Source: Plasmodiophora brassicae (lineage: Eukaryota). From it: DNA of 64,000 bases. The notes beneath the pieces are model-generated. The model was not told where the DNA came from. It made no database searches and worked only from the letters and a program-made list of their open reading frames with translations. Shown here in pieces: positions 49,998 to 64,000 of the stretch (its first letter is position 1; the number at the start of each line of letters is the position of its first letter). Both the position numbers and the translations under genes were made by a program. The stretch covers positions 1-64,000 of the forward strand of contig CP145413.1 of NCBI GenBank assembly GCA_036867785.1. The letters are read 5' to 3'.

Positions 49998-50554
49998 CTC
50001 TTTTGCAACATTGTTTTGCGTAACAGCACCCCGTGGCGTGATCAGCTGCACACAGATGTACCGAGTAAATGTTGTAAATATTGAAAGTACAATTGAAAGT
50101 ACAATAATCCAATGACCAGGCCCCTGCTTATATGCCTAGATTGGTAACCCTTTCGCCCTGCAGTTCCGAGCGGCGGCAGGCCCCACATTTACACTGGTAA
50201 CTTCGTGGAAACTATGTCGGAAGCACCAGTTTGGTCGGATGAACCCCAGCCAGGTTCGGTCTGTGCCTCGTGCCTGCGCTCTGGGTGGCGCTGGATGAAA
50301 TCGAAACGCCTCATTGGTCTGTACCTGCACCGCTGCTAGAGCAATTGTCAAGGTCGTGCGCGTGCGATACGATGGCTGCTCGTTCTCAGGCAGCCTCGCC
50401 CGACCTGTGACCTGTATCAATACCGTAGGTTCATTGCTGCTGCTGGATGAGGCCGCCTGGCCTATCCACGTCACCCGCGAGATGTGAAGTTGACAGCAAT
50501 TTTAGCAATATGATACAGATAGTGGGACTGGTGGTGACGGCAACGGCCGCGATA

Positions 50555-53500
50555 TTACTGCTGGCCAGGTGCAGGGTAGGCCACGCCGGTGTCGCTGAAG
50601 ATTGCGGGCGTGTCGTGAATGAGACGAGCGACGGCCTGGATTGTACTGCCGACCGCAGATCGCAGGAGCACGGGCGACCACGAGATCGCCAGGTTCGTGA
50701 CGGCCATCTGCATGGACACGGAATCCCTCGTGGCTGAACGCGCCGTCTCCGACAGGAACAGCAGCAGGAGCTTCAGCGTGTTCCTGTTCGCCTCCGGCAG
50801 CTTGGCCAGCCAGACCTGCGCCTTCTCGCAACGTCGACTCGCCGATGCGTTCTTATAGATCGACATGAACTCGCTGGCCATCGTCGACGGGATCAGTGAC
50901 GGGTTCAGCTACGCGCACACGAGGTTAGCTTCCGATAGGGCGGACGCGTCAGGCCAACGGCAGACCTGCGATACGTAGAGCTTGAGGACGGCGGCGACGC
51001 ACTCGACAGTCTGCGTCACCAGCGGAAGGTCCTGGTCGCGCTGGAACGCGCGTACCAGCGCATGGACCTCCTCGGGCGGGGCGCTGTCCCTGAACAGCAG
51101 CTCGGGCGATTGCATGCCTTGGACGGACAGGAACGCGATGCACGCGCTAACGACCTTGGCGACACCGTTGCGCTTCGGGGCGCATTCCAGGCTGCCGCCG
51201 AACGTCGAGTCGTTGCCGGTGGTGCCCGCCGAATGGGTGCTGCCCTCCCTGGCACCGTGCTCGTCGTCGTCGTCGGTGCTCTCGTAGCTGATGGTCAGCG
51301 TCCGCGGTCGGCACAGGCGCGCGTCCTCAGCCGGGTCGCAGGACCAGTCGACGGTCAGCAGGAACGGTGGTGGGGCCACGCCGCTGGAGTTCGCCTTGAT
51401 GAATGCGACGAGGTCGGACGCCCCATTCCAGGTCGCCGACAGGTTCAGCAGCGCCTGGGCCAGCTCGGCGATTTCGCCGCCCTTCGCGTGCGAGTCGTCC
51501 ATCAGGACGGGCACGCACCATTGCAACGACGACACACGGTTGGCCTCAATGTCTTGCAGGCCGCGCTGCACAGGCATCGACGTCAGGGTGGGCCCCCACA
51601 GGCACGCGTCGGGTCGGGACGCCATACCAGAGCGCTCTGGACCGTGGATTCACGGTCGCTGATCGCCTGCGCCAGCTCCTGCATGGACCGCTCCAGGTTC
51701 GATTTCGACGTGTGGACGTCGTGCTCGGTCCTGATCAGCGTCTTGGAGGGATCGCGGGAGAACAGGCGGGCGATTCTGGACGACATGGTCTGGTTGGCCG
51801 ATGCGTCCGCTGGCGGGGCGCCGCTGGCGCTGCCCGCCTGCTGCGCCTTGACGATCTGCAAGCGTTCGGTGGACCTGCGCTGGGCGTCGACGGCGGCGGC
51901 GTGCGCTTGGGTCGCCTGGGTGACGCGGCGGTGCCCGTTCTGGAACCGCTTGCGAATGTCTCGGGCCTGCGCCTTCAGTGCATGGCGCTGCTTGCTGACG
52001 GATGCCATGATCTCGCGGTGCCGGAAACAGTGATCCTCGATGGACTGGCACACGCCTTGTACGCTGGGGCGGACGGTCAGTGCCGGGCCAGGCGTGGGGG
52101 GCAGCAAGTGATCATCCGGACAACACACTTACAGGTGCTGGCACTGGACGAGGGCATCGTGGACCGCCGGCAGCTCCTGGTTGTGGATCGACAGTTTGAA
52201 CCTGGCCAGCGACCGGGTCTGCTCATGGGTCTCGGCGGACGCATCCAGAAGGAGCAGCATGGACTTCATCTGCGCCAGGCCCGACATCGCGTGCGCGAAC
52301 GCAGGATCGAACCCGTCGGCCGACAGCTCGGTCACGTAGTCGCAGGGGGCCGATGGCGACACCGCCCGCGTGCCACCCGGGTACGTCGCCGACACGAACT
52401 GCTGGAGGTCCCGGTCGAGGTCGATGGCCGCGAACGCGGCGATCGTGTCGAGGTCGGCCTGCTCGATCGTGTTGACCAGGTCGCGAATGCCTTGGCCGAG
52501 GTCCCGGATGGCGCTCGCGATCACAAACAGGCGCCCTTGTTCAATGCGCTGCAACTGCTGCAGGAACTGGCACTGCATGATGGCGTACGTCTCTCTCATT
52601 GTCTACAATGGGGGTGGGGCGGGGCCCACGTACCGTTAAACAAACGTGCGGTCCCTTGGTGCTGGCCGAACCAACCCTACCTGCAGGGAATGCAGGGCGT
52701 TGCGCTGAACGAGGTCTGCATGGCGGAAGGCGCGCTCCTCGCGCTCCAGCTGCGCCAGCAGAACCTCCAGCTGCGCCTGCGACTGGCACGTTGTCCCACC
52801 CGGCCCGTACGACGATGCGCCGTCCTGCACCAGGCTCATCGTGGCCGACAGGTCCTTCTCCAGGCGGTCCCGTGTCTCCTTGCATTTCGCCTCATGCTGC
52901 CGGGGCGGATGCGGTCAGAGCGCGAGCACTGGCCGATATCGCAACGGCCCTTACCGCAGTGGCAATCTGGAGCTCCTTCGTGGCGCGCGCCCGCCCTTCC
53001 GCAACGGATCGGCAGACGCGCTTGATGTTTCCCTGGCGTGTCTGCGTTCAGTGCCACCGAAACTCTGACCGGCCACGCCCGCCGGACCGACCTTGTGCTC
53101 GCGAACGGCGACCCCGGCCTGTCGAAGCAAGTTGGCGCACGTCATGTAGCAGGTGGCCTTTGTCTGGGTGGACCGCAGCAGGACCTGCTCCGCGTGGGTC
53201 TGCGTGTCGCCGACGTAGGCAGCGCCCTCGTCGCCGCCCGCCTGCACGTCACGAGCCGCCCTAGACAAGGTTTCCGACTGCGCGTAGAGCGCCGATGACC
53301 AGCTCTTCAGCAGGTTCTGGAGGTTCGACACGGATCCCTTCGTGGCGACGGCCTGCACGCAACGTCGACGTCAGATGGGCACCGAGGAACGAACGTGCAC
53401 AGCCGCCCATTACATGCTCAAGCGCGATGTCGAAGCCACTGCCGGCCCACAGGTCGACCGCATACGATCTAGGGCGGGCGGCGTCGAAGAAGATCGCATC

Positions 53501-55254
53501 TGTCGAGGCATTCGACGCCGACCCGGGTGATGGGACGATGGCCAGCGACAGATGGTTCGACCACGATCGGCCGAGGAGGTCGTCCGCGACGGCATCGTCG
53601 TCACCGACGCAACCGGCCGCGCCCGTCAGCTCGACCAGGTTCTTGAGGTCCTTCTCGACGTCGATCTGGCTGACCACCTCCGTGAGCGTCTGATGGTCGT
53701 CGGCCTACCAAACACGGGTCTCTGTTAACGTCCGCACATCGACGATGCCGTTGGATGGGTGGCTGGGGGCACCTCAGTCTCCAGCTGGCGCTGACGAGAC
53801 GCGACCAGCGTCGTCAGCGACTTCTTGACGATCTTTAGGCGCTGGGCGTTCAGCGTGGCGATGCGCCCGATGATGACCGGCAGGCGGGTGAGGTACTCGT
53901 TGAACACGCGCTTGAACGTGACCTCGGCCTCGATCCGGGCCGTCGACACGCCTTCCTCGCCGCCGACGCTGGCCGCGTCCGACGGTTTCCGCAGGCGACG
54001 GATCGTGGCCGACAGCATGGATCCCTCGGCGTGCGTCGACACGTCCTGCTGGCTGGCGGCATCCTCCCCGTCCGCCGGCCTGGGCATGCACCTGTCGATC
54101 TCCGTCATCGCCTTGATGCACTCGGTCTCCAGGAACACGGCCTCCTCGAACAGCGACCGGATCTCGGTCTCGATCGCGGGGATCGCGATCGCGGCGGGCA
54201 GCATGGCGTCCAGGCGCAGGCGCTGCAGAGCCTCCATGTCCCGCTCGGCGCGGCCCATCAGCTGACCGCGGATCAGCAGCCTACAAGGGCGGCGGGGAGC
54301 GCAGACCGGTCAGCGTCTCCCGGGCGCCGGCCACAAACACGGACGCGACGTTTACCATGGGACGTCGATCGTCAGGCCCGACTTGGAGAAGGCGCGCTGG
54401 TTGATGTCCTCGGCCAGGGCGCGGTGCGCGAACACGGACGCCTCCTGGGCGCCGTGTGCCGCGCGTATGAAGGCGCACAGGTCCTTGCAGCTGACGTCGA
54501 GCTTGGCGGATTCGAGGCGGATCCGGGCGATGCGCGCCGACAGCTGCGGCTGGATCTCGTTCCTGAACTTGCGCACCGTCTCGCTGACCGCGTCGCCGGA
54601 CGCCATCGCGGCCGGCCCGCGAATCGGCGCCGCCGGGTGCGCCTTGCCGTCGTCGAACAGCGGGTGCGCCACCGTGTACGCGATCGGGGCGCTCTTCTCC
54701 GGCGAGTGCTCGCCTTCGCTGCGGTCCGTCTCGCTGGAGGGCGCCACCACGGCGGCGCCCTTGTACAGGGCGCGTTTCGCAACGGGCGACTGGACCTTGC
54801 CGGGCGACGGGAACGCCGGGTGCTTCGACTTCATGAACGAGGCGACCACCGAGGACCTGCTGCCGTTGCCGGCCGCCTTGCTGCTGCCCTCCTGGGCGTT
54901 GCTGGGCGTCGGCGGCGCGCTGTTCTCGTCGTTCGTGTCGCGCTCGGCTTCCATCTCGATCAGGCTGGTGCGCGCCGCCTTGATCAGGTGCGTGTCCAGG
55001 TGCAGGTCCTCGGCCGCCTTCAGCGCCGCGCGAAGCGACCGCGGGTCGTGCGCCAGCACCGCCATTCGAATGTCGCGCGCCAACTTCATCCTGAATCCCA
55101 TGGGCGCGCGTTAACATACACACACGCTGTGCTGACCCTGGACCGGACCGCCGACTTACGATGCGACGTTCAGGCGGCGCGTCTTCGGGCTGACGACGGC
55201 GGGCGTGTTGGGCTCACCCTGGCGATGGGTGATGTCGGCGAACGGCTGCGTCAT
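50555..55254 (-). CDS. Large multi-exon protein with extended coiled-coil (F-BAR-like) regions and C-terminal RhoGAP domain
   Basis: FGGSLE...KVVSACIAFL...ELLFR (Arg finger)...VAAVLKLY...KLPEANRNTLKLLLLFL...MAVTNLAISWSPVLLR. That it is one gene, and its start, are inferred. Confidence 0.75.
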
Positions 55255-56652
55255 GGTGGCGCCGAATGCCAGACAATGGGCGGGCGATGCAATGGCGCGT
55301 GCTGTGTGTCGCGCACCGCCGCCACTGGGGCACGCGGGTACCGGTGTCACACACGCGACGCGCACGCTGCGGTCGTTCCCAGTCACAGGAATTGCAGCTC
55401 GACGGACGGAGCGCTGCAGGCAGACAGCAGCAGCAGCAGCAGCAGCACCAGTGCCGTCTCGCGGGCCGACCGGGGGCAGTCAACGATGGGCGACGACGAC
55501 GATAAAATATGGCAACGGGGGCTGGCCAATGACAATTATTTGTGGCGATGATGGCGAGGGCGCCGCCGCCCGGACCTAGCGTGGCCCAGTCCCAGTGCGG
55601 TAACGGAAACGATTCGGGTCGGCGACGTCGCCCCCCACGAAACCGGCACGTAGCGTTAACGGGCGGTTGTTGTGGGCCGTGGCGGGCGGGCGACTCGGCC
55701 GCGTTCCCGCGTCTGTGGACGTGGTGGGGCCACCGGTGCACGAACCTCCAGACATATCGTCGACCACTTCCCAGCTGTGCGGTGCCGTGCAACTCCCCAA
55801 GGAGTCGTTTCGCCTAAGTAGTTGATGACAGGTTCATTTGGCTGCGCAGCCCACGTCTGCAGCATGCACTCCTGACCAGCACGCAAAGAACGCCCGTCGC
55901 CAGGTGCATCTACCTGTCGACCTGCCCTCGACGCCAACGGCTACATGCCTGGCTCCGGCGACGTCGGCGCCGCCGTCTCACGTCCTGGGCGTCAGAGCTC
56001 TGCGACCTTGACATCGCATGCACCCGACCGTGACCACGCGGCGACCTGTCAGACGTTTTCGTTCTCCTGCACGGACGTGGGCCCCGTCTCTGCAACATGT
56101 ACTCGTCCAGCACGGGAGAGAACAAGCAGTACAACGTGGCGTTGTGCACGCAATGGCAGACGACACGTGCACCTGCCTGTTGAACTGCCTGGATCCGCCC
56201 GTGACGTGCCGTCAACGGCACCGTTGCCGACGCGAGCAGCAGCGCCACTGCCTGGGCCCTTGTGCGAAGGCATGTACGGACACGCCTCCGTTGCTGGGCG
56301 TTCACGAGAGCAGCCGTCACGCTGACATCGGCACGCTGCGCAACTCAATTGGACAGTATCGTTGGACAGCGTGTGAGGGCCACGTCGGATAGTTGCTCAT
56401 TGTTCTCCACTTCGACGGCCGAACCATCTCGTTCATCACGCATCCATGCCGGCACGTTCTCGGTCATCACTGCACTTGCGTTGGCGTTGGCCGGGGCACA
56501 ATGAACCTGGACGCAACCCTTGATCTACATAAATACATACGCGTACGCGTACATGGTCCCCCCGGTCAGCCATCACTCATCGGCGGTCCGTCGCGAAGCG
56601 TTGTGCACCGCGGCGTGGCAGAGCGCCGTGTCATCTGTAGGTGGGGAGTACG

Positions 56653-58746
56653 TTACCAGTAGTCCCGGCACGAGCAGTATCCCTGAACGAAGCAATGTAG
56701 CCGCTGGGTGTCGCGCACGTAGACGTCGCGGATCAGGGACAGGGATTTGGCGGCCTCGTGGCAGTCCTGGCACAGTCGGCCATGCCTGCGCAGGCGAATG
56801 GGATCCTTGGGTCCCAGCACCCGGAGCGCGTACGCGAGCGCAACCTTGGTGCTGTGGTGAGTGACGACGCGGGCCGCCTCGTCGTTCGGCAGGTCGAGTT
56901 CCGTGGTCGCCGACAGATCAGGACAATATCCATGCCTGGCGAGATCGTCCATCATGCGGGCATGCGCGTTCCTCAGATCAGCGTCCGTCGCGTACTGCAC
57001 GTCGCCGAACTGGATGCCCACAGACTGCTTCGGAAGCAAGACCGACGTCTTGTCCACCGGCTCGGGGATGCCCTTGTCCCGCATTTCCTGGCGTATCCTG
57101 CACAGGTCGGGCACACGGCCGGCCCTCGAATAGAGGAACGCCATCACGGTGTACGCTTGCGACACGTTCGCCAACGGCGCGTCGATAGCCAGCGCCGCGA
57201 TGCGGTCGAATACGCGCTCGGCCCGATCGACGTCCCCATGCCTACGACACGCGTGGAGGACGGACATGCACAGGTCCAAGTCGGTCCTGGCATCCGCCAG
57301 CCGTTCGGCATCGTTCAGGGCCCCCGTTCGTCCATGCAGATCCACGATACACTGCAGGTGCCTCGTGTCCAGCTGGATGTTCGGCCACGTACTGGAGAAC
57401 TCGGACAGGATCGCCGTCGCGGATGCGACGTGGCCAGCATTGCTGCACGCCGTCAGCAGGCCGTGCAACGTCACCTGGTCCGGGTCCCGGCCCTCGTACT
57501 TCATGTCCCTGAAGACCTGCAGGGCCTGGTCGAGCAGCCCATGGTGGCCATAGGCGGTGATCATGGCCGAGAAGACGGCGGCGCCCGGCGTGCCCGACTT
57601 GTTCGCAATCCGGAACAGCCGTTCGGCGAGGCCCAGGTGGCCCAGCTGACCGTAGACCGTGATCAGCGCGACGACGACCTCCTCGTTGTCGGCCAGTGCG
57701 ACCTCGCGTGCATGCTGATGGATGCCATAGACGGAGCAGAGGCGGCCCGCCCTGCCACACGTCTCAATGACGAGGGCGACGAGGGCCGGATCGCGGCGCA
57801 TGTTCCTGTGCACCATGATGTGGAACACGTCGTAGGCCAGCTCGGCATGCCGCTCGTCGCTGGATAGCGCCTTGATCACCATGCCGTAGATCGTTGGCGA
57901 CGCGTAGACGCCGGCGAACTCCATCGCCGGCAGCACGTTCACGGCCGACTCGACACGGCCCTGTGCCAGCATCGCGTTCAACAGGTTGACGAACATGCCG
58001 CGGTTGCGGTACGCCGGCATGTGCCTCGACATCATGAGCGCAACGATCTGTTCGGCAACGGACGCGCCTGCCGGCGAGCGCGCCTCGGCACAGCACAGGG
58101 CGAACAGCGACAGCGACTTCTCGCTGAGCGCGACACGCTGGTTGACGGCTTCCAGGACGAGGCCCAGAGCGGCGTCCTGTCGCCCGGCCGACCGGCACAG
58201 CTCGGCCATCTTGTGCAGGGCGTAGTCGGACCCGGCGCCGAACTTGTCGTAGAAGGCGAACGCCTCGCGTAGCATCGGCGGGCGCGCGCTCTGACATGCG
58301 CCCAGGAACGTGCCGAGCAGGGCGTCACAGATGCGGACGCGGCGGGACGCAGCCGCCATCAGGATGACCGGCGCTTTCGTCGGCAGGCACCGCAGGCAGA
58401 ACGTCATCATCGACTGGTAGAAGCGGACGTCCGGGCGAGCGCCGGAGTCGTGCACGCGCCGGAAGACGGCCCAGGCGCGAACCGGGTCGCGCTCGGCCGA
58501 CAGACAGTTAATGGCCCGCCTGACGGAGACGTCCGACGATGTCATGAACTCCTGGAACCTGTGCACCTGCGTCGTCACGGCTGTCGCATTGCCGTCGGCG
58601 GCCAGCGACGCCAACGCTGCATGCCGTCGCGAGCGCAGGCGAACGACGCCGCCCCGGACGACAGCGATCGACATGCATGCGCGGCAGACCCCGCGCAGCA
58701 CCCTGCCATAAACATAGACGCGGGAAACCGCCGTCGACCTGATCAT
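56653..58746 (-). CDS. PPR protein with C-terminal DYW domain (HxE changed to HST), intronless
   Basis: PPR motifs (VFSAMITAYGHHGLLDQALQVFRDMKYEGRDPDQVTLHGLLTACSNAG; CIVDLHGRTGALNDA), GYCPD, HHSTKVALAY, LCQDCH, CSCRDYW*. Confidence 0.95.
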   Translation of the reverse strand: MIRSTAVSRVYVYGRVLRGVCRACMSIAVVRGGVVRLRSRRHAALASLAADGNATAVTTQVHRFQEFMTSSDVSVRRAINCLSAERDPVRAWAVFRRVHDSGARPDVRFYQSMMTFCLRCLPTKAPVILMAAASRRVRICDALLGTFLGACQSARPPMLREAFAFYDKFGAGSDYALHKMAELCRSAGRQDAALGLVLEAVNQRVALSEKSLSLFALCCAEARSPAGASVAEQIVALMMSRHMPAYRNRGMFVNLLNAMLAQGRVESAVNVLPAMEFAGVYASPTIYGMVIKALSSDERHAELAYDVFHIMVHRNMRRDPALVALVIETCGRAGRLCSVYGIHQHAREVALADNEEVVVALITVYGQLGHLGLAERLFRIANKSGTPGAAVFSAMITAYGHHGLLDQALQVFRDMKYEGRDPDQVTLHGLLTACSNAGHVASATAILSEFSSTWPNIQLDTRHLQCIVDLHGRTGALNDAERLADARTDLDLCMSVLHACRRHGDVDRAERVFDRIAALAIDAPLANVSQAYTVMAFLYSRAGRVPDLCRIRQEMRDKGIPEPVDKTSVLLPKQSVGIQFGDVQYATDADLRNAHARMMDDLARHGYCPDLSATTELDLPNDEAARVVTHHSTKVALAYALRVLGPKDPIRLRRHGRLCQDCHEAAKSLSLIRDVYVRDTQRLHCFVQGYCSCRDYW

Positions 58747-58986
58747 GGCGCGTTTGGTCAGGCTCAGCGCGTTCGTCGACTGCGCCTATGGTACGTAGGT
58801 AGGTACCGATGGTGCGCAACCGGCGTCGGGACAGTGGGACAGTCGCACGCGAAGTTCGCGCATCGCCGGGACGGCGGCGCCCCCCTCCCCTGCCGCGCGG
58901 TTTGTGCGCATTTTGGGGGGGCTGCCAGTGCCGGACATTGTCACGTTGGGCAGAGCTGCTGTCGAGAGTTCGTCGTGCGGCGCAAC

Positions 58987-60747
58987 ATGACGACGACCAG
59001 GCCGATCGATATGGTCGTGTTCGGGGCGACCGGGTTCACAGGGCGGCACGTCGTCGCGTACGTGAAGTCGCTGAACGACGCGTCGCTGACCGTCGGCATT
59101 GCTGGGCGCTCCCTGGCCGCCCTGCAAGGTGCGGGGCGCGCGCAGCCGCCGCGCCCAGCCCGCGTTGCTGACCGGCCTTGTTGCTGTAGGTGTTGCGAAG
59201 CAGGTCGGTATCGACTGGCCTGTTCTCGTTGCAGATGTCAACGATCACAAGGCGCTGGTGGCAATGGCACGGCAGGCCACAGTTGTCGTCAACTGTGTGG
59301 GCCCGGTATCGTCCCGCGTGACGCCACCTCCCGGCGCCCCGCTCTGATTCCTCGACTGCGGTCAGTTCCGGTTCTCTGGGCGTCAAGTGGTCGCCGCGTG
59401 TATCGAGGCGGGCACACACTACGTGGACATCAGCGGGGAGCCCGAGTTCCTCGAGTCGGTCCAGCTGGAGTTCGACGAGGAGGCGCAACGACGCCAGGTC
59501 GTCGTGGTCGGATCGTGCGGGTTCGACTCGGTGCCCAGTGACATTGGCGCTCTGTTCGTGCGCCAGGAGCTTGCGAAGCGCGGTGCCACGACCGTCGCTT
59601 CGGTATCCCCATAATCCTCCTCGCGCTTTCCTGCGGGTCGCGTTCTGCTGATACCTCGACCAGATTGAATGCTTCATTGCGTTACGAAGCGGGCCGGCCG
59701 GCTACGTAATCAACTTTGCCACTTACGAGTCGGCCGTGTTCGGGATCGCCAATGCCGGCAACCTTCGCAAGGTTCGCTCGTGCGAGCGCCTCGTGCGGCT
59801 CCACGTTTGCCCATCTGTGTGCCAATTCAGATCCGTCGGGCGTCGTCCGCCAAACCGTCGTACGCCAGGTTGGATATCGTTGGCCCAAAGGTCCCAGTCC
59901 GGTCGCCGTACTATTTCGACGAGCGCGTTGGCCACTGGGCCGTCCCGTCCGTATTGTCGCCCGTCGAGGGCCCGCCTGCATCGCGTTTCTGACGACGACC
60001 GGTGCTAGGTTCGTCGGATCCGATGCGTCTGTTGTGCGTCGAACGGCAGCGTCTGGCGCGTGGGCTGCTAGCGGTATCTGCATTGCAGAGCGGGGGTGCT
60101 CCACGTATCATTGACAGTGGCCCGGTTGGCAGATTCGGCGCCGCCCTGCGCTCAGTTCGTCCCGTACCTGGCGATATCGTCCACGGTCTGGCTGTGCCTG
60201 TACCTGCTGCTCGGTTCCGTTTTCAGCGTCCTCGCCAGGTTCCGCTGGGGGCGGTACCTTCTCCTGAAGGTCCGTTCACAGGGGGCGAACGGGTTGTGCC
60301 CCGGCGAACCCATCTGACGTGTCGGCTGGAAGTTCCCCTCCGTTTTCTCGGCCGGCCTGGTGTCGCGCCAAGGTCCAACGGAGCAGCAGGTCAAGGGCAC
60401 GCGATTCGCCTTGACGTTCTTCGGCAAGGGCTACTCCAAAGACGCCCCGACGGGCAACCCTCCGGACGTTGACGTCAAGGCCGTTTGTGAGGGGCCGGAT
60501 CCCGGGTTCGTGCGATCACCGGCGCGCGCGTTCGCATCGTGTGCACCATCGCCTGACACGGTTGCCCCCGGGCAGGTACCGCGCCACGTCGATCGCCGTC
60601 GTCCAATGCGCTCTGGTGATCTGCCGCGAGAAGGCCACCATGCCGACCCAAGGCGGCGTCCTGACGCCCGGGGCGGCCTTCCTCGGCACGTCCCTGATCG
60701 ACCGCCTCCACCGGAACGGCATCACGTTCACGACCGCCTCGAAATGA
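58987..60747 (+). CDS. Saccharopine dehydrogenase-like oxidoreductase (SCCPDH family), multi-exon
   Basis: VVFGATGFTG, IAGRS, VVVNCVGP, ACIEAGTHYVDISGEP, SCGFDSVPSDIG, GGVLTPGAAF. Confidence 0.92.
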
Positions 60748-61018
60748 CCGGTCAGGGCTCGCGACGCAGGGTCGTACTACTGCTGCCACTGCTACTACTA
60801 CACCTGAGGGGCGTCAGCACACCTTGCTAGATGGACGTTATCGTGGTACATTGGCGTCCCCCGGGCGCGAACCTACCCAGGTGGCTCTCCAGCGCTCGCT
60901 CGGGGGGAGGGGGGCGCTGCCGATCGCCGTGTGGTGGTGGACCTTTCGGTGCGCCGACGAGCGCTCGCCGCCAAGCGCCCATTCGTTCGGTCCGCGTTCG
61001 GCCGCGCCGTCACCCGAT

Positions 61019-64000
61019 ATGCGCGCGCTGAACGACGACGACGACGTGTCCGCCGTCCGCCGATCCTGGCAGCACAAGGCCCTGTCGCGTTGCACCGGTC
61101 GTGGCGGTGCCGTCGTGGTCGTGGCGGCGGGCGTCGCGACCATTGCCGGGTGCCTGCTGCTGCTGCTGTGGATGGCGACCCCGTGTCGATTCGCGCCGAC
61201 GGCGACCGCATCTGGAACGCGCGTGCTGTCGCTGGCGTACACGACGACGACGACGTCCAGGGCGCGTCTGGTGACCGCCGAGCACCTGGCCGTCGTACGG
61301 GACATCGAGGCGCGCATCCGGCGGCATCCCGCCTGCGCCTGCGACGCGGACCCGTGCCCGGCGCCGCCGCCCGCCACGATCGTCAACTACGCGTACCCGA
61401 CCGTGAACGGCACGGCCGTCGTGTTCGACGGGCGTGGCGCCGCCCCGATCCCGATCGCGACCCTCGACGGCATCGTCCAGGCCGGCAACCGCACCGACCT
61501 GTTCGACCGGGCCTGGGCCTCTAACGGGTACACGGCGTCGGCGCTCGTCTCGCGGTTCCACCTGTCGCCATCGACGACGACGACGACGACGTCGCTGATG
61601 CCGCTGGCGGCGCTGGCCAGGTCGCGCGCCACGCCCGACCTGGCCGTCCACGTGACCGGCGGCGACGTCGCGTCGTCGTCGGCGCGCTCGGCCCTGCTCG
61701 ACGACCTGCGCCTGGTCGCCGTCGTCGCCGCCGTCGTCCTGGCCGCCGTCGCCTGCACCGGGCGCCGCCTCCCGCAGATCGCCGCCCTGTCCGTCCTGCT
61801 CGTCGTCGTCGTCGCCCTGCCCATCGTCGGCAGCGTCGTCGGTCGCGCCGACCCCGTCGCCCTCGTCACCGCCCTGTGGATCGCGGCCGCCTTCGCCGTC
61901 GCGTCCCAGGACGCCCTGCTGGCATTGGGCGACGTGCCGGCGTTCACGCGGGCGAACGCGCGCCTGTCGCCCGTCGATCGCATGGCGGCGGCCCTGCGCC
62001 CGCTGCCGTCGCCCGTGCAACGCGCCGCCGCCCTCGCCACGCCGCTGGCCGCCGTCGCCCTGGCCAGCGCCGACCCGCAGACGCAGCGCATCGCCCTGGC
62101 CGCCCTCGCCTGCCTGCCCGTCGTCGGCGTCGTCGCCTGCGTCGTCGAGCCCGTCGCCGTCGTCGTGCTGTGCGGCGGCGGCGGCGCCCGCGCGTCCTCG
62201 TCGCGTGCTCGCCGGGCCTGGCGCCGCGCCATACACCGGACGATCGCCACCAGCAGCAGGCGCCGGTCGGTGATCGGCGCGCCGCTACCCGACCGGTCGT
62301 TCGTCGACCTGCTCGACGCGTTCCTGCCGGACGCCGACGAGTGCCGGCGGCGCCCGGTCCGGCGGCGACGACGTCGCGTCAGGCCCGCGACGACCATGAC
62401 GGTGCGCGTCCTGCGCCGCCTGCACGTCGTGGCCGTCGTCCCTGTCGCGGTCGGCGTCCTGGCCGCTGGCATCGCCCTGACCGACGTCGAGCGGGCGGCG
62501 CGCCCCACGACGTTGCCCGTGACGACGGCCGACCTGGAGGCGGCGCGCGACGTGTTCGACGGCATCGCCGACCCGCCCCCGTCGTCGTCGTCGTCGCGCC
62601 CGGTGCTGGCGACCGTCCTGCAGCAGCCGCCGGGCGACGACGACCATCGGCTGCCGGTGGCGGTGGCCGCGTCCGTCGACGACCTGATCGTGCGGCCCGG
62701 CGCCCCGACGTCCCTGTCGGCGATCCCGGTCGGGACGACGGCCGTCGAGGCGCACTGGTCCTGGCCCGCCTACAACGGGTCGTCGCCGATCGCCTCGTTC
62801 GCCCTGCTGTACCGCGACGACGACGGCGGCGGCGGCGGCCCATGGCGCGTGTACGACGCCGGCGACGCCGACAATGACGGGTCGCTGGCGCGCATCGTCG
62901 GCGGCCTGCGCCCGGCCACGTCGTACGCGTTGCGGGTCGTGGCGCGCAACGCGGCCGGCTTCGGCGTGCCGTCCGACGCCGTCCCCGTCGCCACGTTCGG
63001 CCTGGCGCGACCCGCGCCGCCCGCCCCCACCGGCCTGCGCGTCGCGTACGACGCCGCCGCCAACGCCGTCAACGTCACCTGGGCGCCGGGCGCCGCCAAC
63101 GCGTCGTTCACCCTCGAGATGCGGTCGGCGGCGGCGGCGGACGACGACGACGACGACAAGTACAGCGTCGTGTACGCCGGGTCGGCGCCGGGCACGCGCC
63201 TGACGATGCCGGCCTGCACCGGCCGGGACGCCGTCCGGTACTGGTTCCGGGTGCGCGCCAGCCCGAACGCGTCGTCGGCGGCGTCGGCGCCGTCCGCCCC
63301 GGTCGCCGTCGTCGGCATCCCCGATCGGGTGCCGCTGGCGCCGCCCCGCCCGCGCCTGCTGTCGGCGCCGGGCGACGCCGCCGCCACGCCGATCCGCATC
63401 GGGGCGGGGCGGCCGGCGTGCTGGGCGCCCGGCGACCGCCTGCGCGTCTGGGTCGGCGGCGATGACGACCGGTGGGACGCGCACGACGTCGACGACGACG
63501 GTGGCGTGTTCGCCGACAACGGGACCGGCGGCGCCGCCGCCCCCCGGTCGTACAAGACGGCGAGCGTGAACCGGGCCGGCACCGGGCCCTTCTCCGCCGT
63601 CCTGACGGTGACGCTGGGGAACGCGACGGCGAACGCGACGGTGGCGGCGGCGCTCGAGGGGGAGGCGGCGGGCGGGCGGTTCGACGTGGACGACGGGGCG
63701 GTCCTGCCGCGACGGATCGTGGTGGGCGGGGCGGGCGGCGTCGTCGCCGCCGTCCTGCTGCTGGGGGCGACGCGGCGCTTGTCGCGCGGCGAGCTCCTGG
63801 TCGTCCTGGGCAACGGCGTCGGCGTCGGGGCGGTCGGCGTCGGCGCGGTGCACGCGGCCGGGTACCCGGTCGACCAGGTCAGCGGGACGGTGCTGCCCGC
63901 CGTCGTCGGCATCGCGCTGCACGCCTCCGTCCTGGGCCTGCGGCAGCGCACGGCCCGCCTGGCGCTGGCGACGCTGACGACGACGGCGCTGTCGGTGGCG
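61019..64000 (+). CDS. Patched/Dispatched-like (RND superfamily) membrane protein with fibronectin type III domains; runs off the window
   Basis: Frame from ATG 61019 is consistent to the window end and absent from the ORF track. Layout: TM1, luminal loop, VHVTGGD...LLDDLRLVAVV plus further TMs, FN3 segments (WSWPAYNGSSPI...GLRPATSYALRVVARNAAGFG; YWFRVRA), then a second TM cluster. Confidence 0.7.
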   Translation, partial: MRALNDDDDVSAVRRSWQHKALSRCTGRGGAVVVVAAGVATIAGCLLLLLWMATPCRFAPTATASGTRVLSLAYTTTTTSRARLVTAEHLAVVRDIEARIRRHPACACDADPCPAPPPATIVNYAYPTVNGTAVVFDGRGAAPIPIATLDGIVQAGNRTDLFDRAWASNGYTASALVSRFHLSPSTTTTTTSLMPLAALARSRATPDLAVHVTGGDVASSSARSALLDDLRLVAVVAAVVLAAVACTGRRLPQIAALSVLLVVVVALPIVGSVVGRADPVALVTALWIAAAFAVASQDALLALGDVPAFTRANARLSPVDRMAAALRPLPSPVQRAAALATPLAAVALASADPQTQRIALAALACLPVVGVVACVVEPVAVVVLCGGGGARASSSRARRAWRRAIHRTIATSSRRRSVIGAPLPDRSFVDLLDAFLPDADECRRRPVRRRRRRVRPATTMTVRVLRRLHVVAVVPVAVGVLAAGIALTDVERAARPTTLPVTTADLEAARDVFDGIADPPPSSSSSRPVLATVLQQPPGDDDHRLPVAVAASVDDLIVRPGAPTSLSAIPVGTTAVEAHWSWPAYNGSSPIASFALLYRDDDGGGGGPWRVYDAGDADNDGSLARIVGGLRPATSYALRVVARNAAGFGVPSDAVPVATFGLARPAPPAPTGLRVAYDAAANAVNVTWAPGAANASFTLEMRSAAAADDDDDDKYSVVYAGSAPGTRLTMPACTGRDAVRYWFRVRASPNASSAASAPSAPVAVVGIPDRVPLAPPRPRLLSAPGDAAATPIRIGAGRPACWAPGDRLRVWVGGDDDRWDAHDVDDDGGVFADNGTGGAAAPRSYKTASVNRAGTGPFSAVLTVTLGNATANATVAAALEGEAAGGRFDVDDGAVLPRRIVVGGAGGVVAAVLLLGATRRLSRGELLVVLGNGVGVGAVGVGAVHAAGYPVDQVSGTVLPAVVGIALHASVLGLRQRTARLALATLTTTALSVA

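What the first reader, a model, noticed from the sequence alone, without database searches (positions are those of the whole stretch)
56653..58746. Plant-type PPR-DYW RNA-editing-factor gene in a rhizarian plant parasite, with the catalytic Glu replaced
Seen: an intronless 697-aa ORF with an Arg-rich N-terminus lacking acidic residues, a PPR array, and a DYW tail with CxxCH and CSCRDYW. The deaminase motif reads HHSTK, not HSE(K/R); the Thr codon ACC at 56848-56850 differs from GAR at all three positions, so it is not a single-base error. The PG box is also degenerate (PEPVDKTSV). Known: PPR-DYW proteins are the C-to-U editors of land-plant organelles, the HxE Glu is essential for catalysis, and outside plants the family is patchy (e.g. 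Naegleria, Physarum, some rotifers and fungi). Inference: this is a mitochondria-targeted pseudo-deaminase acting in RNA processing or as a partner of an active paralogue. It hints at an organellar PPR-DYW system in phytomyxids, acquired laterally or anciently retained. A host-directed role is more speculative.
Basis: partly seen in the sequence, partly recalled or inferred. Interest (0 to 1): 0.85.

Follow-up and report, generated by a model that had tools for sequence, protein, structure and literature searches.

The report
Dead-deaminase PPR-DYW gene in clubroot pathogen
This is a real, transcribed gene of the clubroot pathogen for a plant-style RNA-editing-type protein whose catalytic residue is missing, and it is one of at least 27 related genes, which suggests an unreported RNA-editing or RNA-processing system in this parasite's mitochondria.

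Summary
Window 56653-58746 (-) is an intronless 697-aa ORF, 664/673 identical to Plasmodiophora brassicae PBRA_003878. It has PPR repeats and a full-length DYW_deaminase domain (PF14432, 5.9e-20). The deaminase motif reads H-S-T where plant proteins have H-S-E. The Thr is also present in the second isolate's protein. Spliced RNA contigs of 4 runs from 3 studies cover the gene with no differing letter.

It is not a lone gene. I found at least 27 P. brassicae PPR-DYW paralogues. Sixteen have an intact HxE...CxxC core and 11 lack a core residue. Their DYW domains, together with 5 unnamed sequences, sit on one side of a well-supported branch. All 27 share an N-terminal module that did not align with the plant-like rows.

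Best reading: a catalytically dead but still constrained, probably mitochondrial, sequence-specific RNA-binding factor. Mitochondrial C-to-U editing itself was not tested. A 2026 survey already counts 31 DYW domains in Rhizaria without naming species in its main text. The scan earlier noted Naegleria DYW genes on other DNA. Interest is moderate.

The parts
56653..58746 (-). Intronless ORF of 697 aa plus stop. It corresponds to P. brassicae PBRA_003878, which is annotated from Met25 as 673 aa.
55832..58891 (-). Extent of a stand-alone RNA contig (run X16, 3060 nt) over the gene. It implies a 5' leader of up to 145 nt and a 3' region of about 821 nt. Contigs do not prove transcript ends.
   Evidence: table 8
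58633..58746 (-). Residues 1-38: Arg-rich, no acidic residues, modelled as disordered (pLDDT below 50). Presequence-like. Mitochondrial targeting is inferred, not tested.
58672..58674 (-). Alternative start, Met25, which is the start used in the PBRA_003878 gene model.
58003..58524 (-). Residues 75-248: family-specific N-terminal module of five PPR-like helical hairpins. It is colinear in all 27 P. brassicae DYW paralogues, in the DYW-less PBRA_000736 and in two unnamed environmental relatives.
57280..58002 (-). Residues 249-489: PPR repeats. The last six align as P1-L1-S1-P2-L2-S2 with a plant-consensus PLS protein.
57070..57279 (-). Residues 490-559: two TPR-like hairpins in the position of E1 and E2. 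Pfam E_motif scores only 16.9 bits, below its cut-off of 27.3.
56656..57069 (-). Residues 560-697: DYW-type deaminase-fold domain.
57040..57066 (-). Residues 561-569, PEPVDKTSV: the degenerate equivalent of the PG box (plant K.PG.SWIE; family consensus K.PGRT(S/T)L).
56848..56856 (-). H631-S632-T633: the HxE position, with Thr (ACC at 56848-56850) in place of the catalytic Glu.
56758..56772 (-). C659-Q-D-C662-H663: the CxxCH zinc-binding motif, intact.
56656..56697 (-). H684...C691-S-C693-R-D-Y-W697: the C-terminal zinc-site residues and the DYW tripeptide, intact.
58786..58863 (-). Short upstream ORF in the leader: ATG at 58863-58861, in frame with the main ORF, closed by TAG at 58788-58786. 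It matters only if transcripts start upstream of it.

Best explanation
The gene encodes one member of a lineage-specific family of at least 27 PLS-class PPR-DYW proteins of Plasmodiophora brassicae. The architecture is: an Arg-rich presequence, a family-specific N-terminal module, PLS repeats, E1/E2 and a DYW domain.

The DYW domain keeps its fold, both sets of zinc ligands and the DYW tail. It has Thr where the proton-shuttling Glu of every active cytidine deaminase sits, so it most likely cannot deaminate cytidine by itself.

I infer that the protein is imported into the mitochondrion and binds a specific RNA through its PPR tract, with the DYW domain serving a non-catalytic (structural or nucleotide-holding) role. 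Two uses are possible. It could mark a site that a Glu-bearing paralogue edits. Or, as I think slightly more likely, it could help splice, cleave or stabilise a transcript of the intron-rich mitochondrial genome.

Shown: the gene, its transcription, its motifs, the family and the predicted fold. Inferred: loss of activity, mitochondrial location and RNA target. Untested: whether editing occurs in this organism.
For: Gene and domains.

Glu replaced by Thr:
- Seen in the window DNA and in a second isolate's protein that differs at 9 of 673 residues.
- RNA contigs of 4 runs from 3 studies show no differing letter.
- Its position at the Glu is fixed by alignment to 9kfx and to 26 paralogues plus plant rows.

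Need for the Glu: the DOT4 paper, citing Hayes et al. 2015, calls it of unequivocal importance for editing (passages of PMC6424221).

Constraint on the rest of the domain:
- The query keeps 26 of 37 columns that are at least 85% conserved in 105 plant-like DYW domains.
- These include H631, C659, C662, H663, H684, C691, C693, D695 and W697.

Fold:
- AlphaFold2 mean pLDDT 90.4, pTM 0.82.
- Best PDB match is 9kfx_A, E 1.7e-23.

Family:
- 25 of the 30 clusters I looked up carry P. brassicae names.
- Adding the query's own cluster and PBRA_008312 gives 27.
- 16 of 27 have an intact HxE...CxxC core.

Precedents:
- Dead DYW domains retained in working proteins: Poaceae DOT4 has HSS with a conserved PPR array.
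- Non-editing DYW proteins: PpPPR_43 in cox1 intron 3 splicing and CRR2 in RNA cleavage (passages of PMC9459714).

Possible substrates: the P. brassicae mtDNA has 54 introns (section 7 of PMC6823432).

Presequence-like N-terminus.
Against: - No measurement of activity, location or RNA binding exists.
- Mitochondrial C-to-U editing in P. brassicae was not tested, and I saw no report of it. In the mt genome paper the term occurs only in the reference list.
- I could not compute dN/dS, so constraint is argued only from retained motifs.
- The members with a broken core keep fewer conserved DYW columns than the intact ones (mean 25 against 29.4 of 37). That fits slow decay as well as a change of role.
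- Inter-isolate protein divergence (1.34%) lies inside the family range of 0-3.1% and says nothing either way.
- No short DYW-only helper protein of the plant DYW1 kind turned up among the clusters I named.
- Residues at the PPR specificity positions of P1 and S1 look non-canonical by eye. No PPR-code tool was run.
Confidence: 0.65

Rival explanations
1. Decaying relic. The protein was an editing factor whose target C became a genomic T. It is still transcribed but no longer needed, and it is on its way to loss, as described for plant DOT4, RARE1 and CRR28 lineages.
For: - Catalytic Glu lost, PG box degenerate, and the KNLR motif before CxxCH changed to RHGR.
- Members with a broken core keep fewer conserved columns on average (25 against 29.4 of 37).
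- The nearest paralogue in the tree, PBRA_008080, has also lost a zinc His and the CxxC.
- Stepwise degeneration after target loss is documented in plants (PMC6424221).
Against: - The 697-codon frame is fully open in two alleles that differ at 9 residues.
- All other zinc ligands and the DYW tail are kept.
- The model is confident along the whole length beyond the presequence.
- The gene is transcribed in 3 studies.
- About 40% of the family shows core loss with the C-terminal half intact, which looks like a tolerated state rather than a brief step to loss.
Confidence: 0.2
2. Still an active C-to-U editing enzyme, with another residue or a water network taking over the role of the Glu.
For: - Zinc ligands, fold and DYW tail are intact.
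- One other paralogue, PBRA_002194, also has Thr at this position (HCT).
Against: - The Glu is required in the plant DYW proteins tested (cited in PMC6424221).
- The replacements in the family are chemically unrelated (T, T, V, V, P, P, C, D, D), which argues for loss rather than a new catalytic solution.
Confidence: 0.05
3. Host-directed effector: secreted into the plant cell to bind host organellar RNA.
For: - The parasite lives inside plant cells and the protein is of a plant-like type.
- Clubroot changes the expression of host PPR genes (PMC13247141). That paper concerns host genes only.
Against: - The N-terminus is Arg-rich and lacks a long hydrophobic stretch, so it looks like a presequence rather than a signal peptide (by eye; no predictor was run).
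- It belongs to a family of 27 with the usual organellar architecture.
- Two unnamed environmental relatives share that architecture.
Confidence: 0.03

Closest known systems
Land-plant PLS-class PPR-DYW RNA-editing factors (consensus design 9kfx; DYW domains 7o4e of At3g63370 and 7w86 of DWY1)
   Same: - P1-L1-S1-P2-L2-S2-E1-E2-DYW order over residues 284-697.
- DYW domain with CxxCH, H..F...CSC.DYW and the first zinc His.
- Sequence match to 9kfx 1.5e-73; fold match 1.7e-23.
   Different: - Catalytic Glu is Thr and the PG box is degenerate.
- An extra N-terminal module of about 175 residues is conserved across all paralogues and did not align with the plant-like rows.
- DYW identity to plant-like rows is only about 31%.
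Poaceae DOT4 (natural HSE to HSS change in a retained PPR-DYW protein; PMC6424221)
   Same: The catalytic Glu is lost while the PPR array and the rest of the protein stay conserved. The authors judge that DYW domain to be non-functional.
   Different: DOT4 is a single plant chloroplast factor whose history is tied to a known lost target. Here no target is known, and 11 of 27 family members share the condition.
Protist PPR-DYW proteins (Naegleria, Acrasis, Physarum; paradinid Ascetosporea, PMC11946409; 31 DYW domains counted in Rhizaria, PMC13386178)
   Same: A plant-type DYW protein in a non-plant eukaryote. Paradinids are, like phytomyxids, endomyxan Rhizaria, and they do show mitochondrial C-to-U editing.
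   Different: - The paradinid and fungal sequences keep the His, Glu and Cys residues.
- The paradinid paper reports only one and three such sequences in its two strains, against a family of at least 27 here.
- I had no paradinid sequences to place in the tree.
- Neither paper names Plasmodiophora in its main text.
DYW-type proteins with non-editing roles: Physcomitrium PpPPR_43 (cox1 intron 3 splicing) and Arabidopsis CRR2 (rps7-ndhB cleavage), PMC9459714
   Same: PLS-DYW architecture used for splicing or cleavage rather than editing. P. brassicae mtDNA has 54 introns.
   Different: No functional data exist here. I did not check whether those plant proteins keep the Glu.
ADAT3/Tad3, the non-catalytic partner of the ADAT2 tRNA deaminase (recalled from general knowledge; not checked in any call)
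   Same: A deaminase-fold domain that keeps its zinc ligands, lacks the catalytic Glu, and works as the substrate-holding partner of an active paralogue.
   Different: It belongs to a different deaminase family. No evidence here shows that DYW domains pair.

Membership tests
PLS-class PPR protein with DYW-type domain (structural family, Pfam PF14432 plus PPR) | Tandem PPR repeats | tested here: met
   PPR_2 2.2e-23, PPR 1.3e-21, PPR_3 and PPR_1 above their cut-offs. The model shows 15 helical hairpins between residues 38 and 558.
PLS-class PPR protein with DYW-type domain (structural family, Pfam PF14432 plus PPR) | P-L-S motif order ending in P2-L2-S2-E1-E2 | tested here: inconclusive
   Residues 357-697 align end to end with residues 277-612 of the PLS-consensus protein 9kfx (167.8 bits). 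Pfam E_motif reaches only 16.9 bits against a cut-off of 27.3. No dedicated PLS motif caller was available.
PLS-class PPR protein with DYW-type domain (structural family, Pfam PF14432 plus PPR) | Full-length DYW domain at the C-terminus ending in DYW | tested here: met
   PF14432 at 71.3 bits against a cut-off of 24, covering profile positions 1-93 of 93. The protein ends in CSCRDYW.
Active DYW cytidine deaminase (C-to-U editing enzyme) | Zinc-binding His and two Cys of HxE(x)nCxxC | tested here: met
   H631, C659 and C662 are aligned with the plant and family residues.
Active DYW cytidine deaminase (C-to-U editing enzyme) | Catalytic Glu of HxE | tested here: not met
   Thr633 (ACC) in the DNA, in a second isolate's protein, and in RNA contigs that show no differing letter. 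Aligned to the Glu.
Active DYW cytidine deaminase (C-to-U editing enzyme) | PG box | tested here: not met
   PEPVDKTSV lies under K.PG.SWI. The motif is loose in several paralogues too.
Active DYW cytidine deaminase (C-to-U editing enzyme) | Second zinc site and C-terminal H..F...CSC.DYW | tested here: met
   H663, H684, C691, C693, D695 and W697 are present.
Active DYW cytidine deaminase (C-to-U editing enzyme) | C-to-U editing present in the organism's organelle transcripts | not tested
No report of editing was found.
Organelle-targeted PPR protein | N-terminal targeting presequence and mitochondrial location | not testable with these tools
   Composition only: 10 Arg and no acidic residue in the first 50 residues, and residues 1-38 modelled as disordered. 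No targeting predictor or experiment.
Phytomyxid PPR-DYW family (defined here) | Conserved N-terminal module, and a DYW domain with CPDCH-like and R(H/Q)HHF-like signatures that groups with P. brassicae paralogues | tested here: met
   N-module identity to 26 paralogues averages 39.5% without large gaps. The query lies within the group of 27 P. brassicae rows plus P0042 (SH-aLRT 91). That group and 4 further unnamed rows are separated from 107 other rows by a 98* branch. The query itself has CQDCH and RLHCF.

The most novel reading that the evidence does not exclude
Plasmodiophora brassicae mitochondria run a large plant-like PPR-DYW machinery of about 27-31 factors. About four in ten of these are pseudo-deaminases that have been kept as site-specific RNA adaptors. 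They would either hand their site to a Glu-bearing paralogue or serve in splicing the 54 mitochondrial introns. The family-wide N-terminal module would act as a shared docking surface for a common partner. This would be a second, independently elaborated 'editosome' outside plants, in a major crop pathogen, and mitochondrial C-to-U editing there has so far gone unnoticed.
Probability: 0.25. Interest if true: 0.7.

Novelty: new variant of a known kind. Interest (0 to 1): 0.45.

Why it matters
PPR-DYW proteins are the enzymes of plant organellar C-to-U editing, and outside plants they occur patchily. A family of at least 27 in the clubroot pathogen predicts an RNA-editing or RNA-processing layer in its mitochondria. 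The two mitochondrial genome descriptions I could consult or see cited do not mention one.

That layer could affect how the pathogen's unusually intron-rich, hard-to-annotate mitochondrial genes are read.

The many members that keep the zinc site but lack the catalytic Glu give a natural series for asking what a DYW domain does besides deamination.

The conserved N-terminal module is an architectural feature that did not align with the plant-like rows I examined. I found no description of it in the literature searches I ran.

The gene itself is already annotated, and DYW domains in Rhizaria have been counted in a 2026 survey. The advance is therefore one of description and hypothesis, not of a new kind of system.

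Tried and rejected
- Whole-genome HMM tally: no genome is held for this window. I used protein databases instead, so 27 paralogues is a lower bound. Only hits I picked by eye from the top 150 were name-checked (30 clusters).
- Word-index search with the query's DYW region found only itself and one plant protein, because the domain is too divergent for shared words.
- Word-index search with PBRA paralogue P0043 returned mostly plants. It added PBRA_008312 and a Balamuthia protein, but no Spongospora or Polymyxa name. This does not show that they lack the family.
- The look-up of sequencing runs listed no holder on record as RNA. The RNA nature of 4 runs was shown instead by spliced joints. Contig depths were not used to rank expression.
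- Complex prediction of the query DYW domain with the Glu-bearing DYW domain of P0043 gave 'no answer' (score 0.00 against a mark of 0.34, controls not run). This is no evidence either way.
- Inter-isolate divergence as a sign of relaxed constraint: 1.34%, inside the family range of 0-3.1%. Uninformative.
- ESM Atlas on the N-module returned only generic PPR clusters.
- Earlier scan notes: nothing on this genome. Two Naegleria DYW notes exist on other DNA.
- The Knoop 2023 review and the Schallenberg-Rudinger 2013 survey are not held.
- Searches 'Plasmodiophora + DYW' (2 irrelevant papers), 'Plasmodiophora + pentatricopeptide' (the two papers I opened, use PPR only as a differential-expression label or for host genes), 'DYW + Rhizaria' and a phytomyxid/PPR-DYW search found no description of this family.
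- A PPR-code target prediction was not attempted, because there was no mtDNA and no motif caller.
Full report
**Observation**

The window holds an ATG-started ORF of 697 codons at 56653-58746 on the minus strand (translation). Pfam gives PPR_2 at 2.2e-23 and PPR at 1.3e-21. It also gives a full-length DYW_deaminase match: PF14432, 5.9e-20, 71.3 bits against a cut-off of 24, with residues 606-697 on profile positions 1-93 of 93.

The E_motif model reaches only 16.9 bits, below its cut-off of 27.3.

The DNA reads cac cac agc acc aag, giving HHSTK. The ACC lies at 56850-56848, three changes away from GAA or GAG.

In the HMMER alignment to the crystal-structure sequence of a synthetic plant-consensus PPR-DYW protein (9kfx, 1.5e-73), residues 357-697 align with its residues 277-612:
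- 'hhsTKvAlay' lies under 'yhsEKLAiaf'.
- 'pepvdktsv' lies under the PG box 'kkepgcswi'.
- CQDCH and the C-terminal H..F...CSCRDYW match.

**Identity, and whether the Thr is real**

The protein is 664/673 identical to 'hypothetical protein PBRA_003878 [Plasmodiophora brassicae]', which UniRef calls a DYW domain-containing protein. That model starts at Met25. Its allele differs at nine residues but also reads HHSTK.

No whole genome is held for the window.

Contigs of four public runs from three studies were laid on 50000-61000.
- In all four, the contigs skip 57-78 nt segments with CT..AC ends in the gene at 50.5-55.5 kb, and 59-70 nt segments with GT..AG ends in the gene from 59.1 kb. They therefore derive from spliced RNA.
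- The same or sister contigs run unbroken over 55832-58870 or further, with 0 other letters.
- The gene is thus transcribed, has no intron, and no contig differs from the window at the ACC codon.
- One contig (run X16, 3060 nt) covers just 55832-58891.
- Contigs cannot give expression levels or true transcript ends.

**It is one of a large family**

A full HMMER search with residues 540-697 found 1481 proteins at E up to 1e-3. After the query's own cluster, the best hits were 39-47% identical.

I picked 30 clusters by their motifs and looked them up. Twenty-five of the 30 carry P. brassicae names, and five are unnamed Logan, ENA or JGI sequences. Adding the query's cluster and PBRA_008312 gives at least 27 paralogues. 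This is a lower bound, because only part of the top 150 was name-checked.

An alignment of the C-terminal 175 residues (PBRA_008312) gives this tally:
- An intact H-x-E plus CxxC core in 16 of 27.
- The Glu replaced in 9 of 27: Thr in the query and PBRA_002194; Val in two; Pro in two; Cys in one; Asp in two.
- PBRA_008080 lacks the zinc His and the CxxC.
- PBRA_007282 lacks the second Cys.

The PG box is loose across the family (consensus K.PGRT(S/T)L), so its degeneracy in the query is less telling than the lost Glu.

**Tree of DYW domains**

An IQ-TREE 'quick' tree used 139 DYW domains. Of 152 candidates, 13 were dropped for lacking a C-terminal C(S/T)C or being short.
- The 27 P. brassicae rows and five unnamed rows fall on one side of a branch with SH-aLRT 98. 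The other 107 rows lie on the other side.
- I call those 107 'plant-like' by motif. Only Calypogeia, Selaginella and Balamuthia are named among them.
- The P. brassicae rows plus P0042 form one group (SH-aLRT 91). P0042 is a fragment nearly identical to PBRA_008312.
- The query's nearest row is PBRA_008080 (SH-aLRT 81).
- The tree is unrooted and built from 140 columns. It shows a radiation within this lineage and argues against a recent gift from the brassica host. It does not tell direction or age.

**Architecture**

AlphaFold2 with a 50-row alignment gives mean pLDDT 90.4 and pTM 0.82.
- Residues 1-38 are below pLDDT 50.
- Thirty helices between residues 38 and 558 form 15 hairpins.
- An alpha/beta domain spans 566-697.
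- Foldseek's best PDB match is 9kfx_A (E 1.7e-23, 634 aligned columns).

The first 50 residues hold 10 Arg and no Asp or Glu. This looks like a mitochondrial presequence, but no predictor was run.

Residues 75-248 form a module that is colinear in all 26 other paralogues, with mean identity 39.5% to the query and 41.0% among the paralogues. That is as high as the DYW domain at 40.7%. The module also occurs in:
- the DYW-less paralogue PBRA_000736 (39% identity over residues 74-449);
- two unnamed environmental relatives.

Only 4 of 19 plant-like rows overlapped the module at all, at 15.8% identity. The ESM Atlas sees generic PPR features in it. A non-repeating module shared by all paralogues suggests a common function rather than site recognition. 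That is an inference.

**Is the dead domain decaying?**

I used the 37 columns that are at least 85% conserved in 105 plant-like DYW domains.
- The query keeps 26 of 37.
- The 17 Glu-bearing paralogues keep 29.4 on average.
- The ten I grouped as 'lost' (nine without Glu plus PBRA_008080) keep 25.
- The plant-like rows keep 35.4.
- Losses cluster around the PG box, the HxE and the KNLR stretch before CxxCH (RHGR in the query).
- The C-terminal half (CxxCH...S..R.IRD.R.H.F..G.CSC.DW) is almost untouched in every member.

This pattern fits a domain kept for structure or binding after catalysis was given up, but slow decay is not excluded. Protein divergence between isolates (1.34%) lies within the family range of 0-3.1% over 20 pairs. 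I could not obtain the other isolate's DNA, so there is no dN/dS.

**Mechanism**

The Glu of HxE is described as of unequivocal importance for editing (Hayes et al. 2015, as cited in passages of PMC6424221). All Poaceae DOT4 proteins carry HSS in place of HSE while keeping, and even extending, the PPR array. Those authors judge that DYW domain likely non-functional.

DYW-type proteins can serve other ends. PpPPR_43 is needed for cox1 intron 3 splicing and CRR2 for RNA cleavage (passages of PMC9459714).

The P. brassicae mitochondrial genome has 32 protein genes and 54 introns. Its annotators found the exon borders hard to define. RNA editing appears in that paper only in the reference list (section 7 read in full; term search).

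My best reading (0.65) is a mitochondrial, sequence-specific RNA-binding factor whose DYW domain is non-catalytic. I lean slightly towards a processing or splicing role over acting as a site marker for an active paralogue. No short DYW1-like helper appeared among the clusters I named.

Rivals:
- a relic on its way to loss (0.2);
- an enzyme that is still active by other chemistry (0.05);
- a host-directed effector (0.03).

**What is already known**

Passages of PMC11946409 report PPR-DYW sequences with intact His, Glu and Cys, together with C-to-U mitochondrial editing, in paradinid Ascetosporea. These are endomyxan Rhizaria, like phytomyxids. The paper does not mention Plasmodiophora or Phytomyxea.

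Section 7 of PMC13386178 (July 2026) counts '31 DYW in Rhizaria' in a survey and reads non-plant DYW clusters as transfers from plants. The species are in Table S10, which I could not open. The word Plasmodiophora is not in a paper that also holds 'DYW', apart from two irrelevant ones.

Searches for Plasmodiophora with pentatricopeptide, for DYW with Rhizaria, and for phytomyxid names with PPR-DYW found no description of this family, its dead members or its N-terminal module. The Knoop 2023 review and the 2013 survey are not held, so a mention there cannot be excluded.

Earlier notes of this scan concern Naegleria DYW genes on other DNA and did not change my reading.

**Verdict**

This is one of at least 27 paralogues, of which 11 have a broken catalytic core.

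The gene is annotated, and the presence of DYW domains in Rhizaria is in print. I therefore rate it a new variant of a known kind, with moderate interest (0.45).

The decisive test is an RNA-against-DNA comparison for the mitochondrial genome. It could not be run here.

Noticed in passing
window 58786-58863 (-): A 25-codon upstream ORF lies in the leader of the PPR-DYW gene. It is in frame with the main ORF and closed by TAG 42 nt before the main ATG. It falls inside the region covered by the RNA contig that reaches 58891.
   Followed up: partly
window 55832-56652: RNA contigs continue about 821 nt beyond the stop codon of the PPR-DYW gene. This is either an unusually long 3' UTR or a small unannotated transcript. 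Only short, probably spurious ORFs were seen on the other strand.
   Followed up: no
window 50483-55530 (-): A neighbouring minus-strand gene has at least 10 short introns of 57-78 nt. CT..AC ends were listed for 8 of them on the plus strand. One exon region gives a borderline RhoGAP hit (2.9e-05, 24.4 bits against a cut-off of 24.5).
   Followed up: partly
window 58987-60575 (+): A head-to-head neighbour starts with MTTTRPIDMVVFGATGFTG at 58987, only 240 nt from the PPR-DYW start codon. It has at least 7 GT..AG introns of 59-70 nt. This is a very compact divergent promoter region.
   Followed up: partly
window 60698-64000 (+): An open frame of more than 1100 codons runs off the window end in DNA of 70-78% GC. 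It has one fibronectin type III domain hit (8.4e-13).
   Followed up: no
window 8001-12000 and 20001-24000: Two blocks with raised GC (0.61-0.66), strongly positive AT skew (up to 0.39) and negative GC skew stand out from the 0.50-0.54 GC around them.
   Followed up: no
proteins P0045, P0057, P0058, P0059, P0061, P0070, P0075, P0091, P0133, P0145 (P. brassicae paralogues): Ten further P. brassicae DYW paralogues lack a catalytic-core residue: Glu replaced by D, V, T, P, C, P, D or V; one lacks His and CxxC; one lacks the second Cys. All keep the C-terminal zinc-site motif.
   Followed up: partly
protein P0103: A Balamuthia mandrillaris protein named 'DsRNA-binding protein 3' is a 609-aa PPR-DYW protein. 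Its DYW domain groups inside the plant-like rows next to P0149 (SH-aLRT 98).
   Followed up: no
proteins P0049, P0127, P0051, P0054 (unnamed metagenome sequences): Four unnamed environmental proteins lie on the same side of the 98* branch as the P. brassicae family. P0049 and P0127, the two I examined, also share the N-terminal module. They may come from other soil or water endomyxans.
   Followed up: partly
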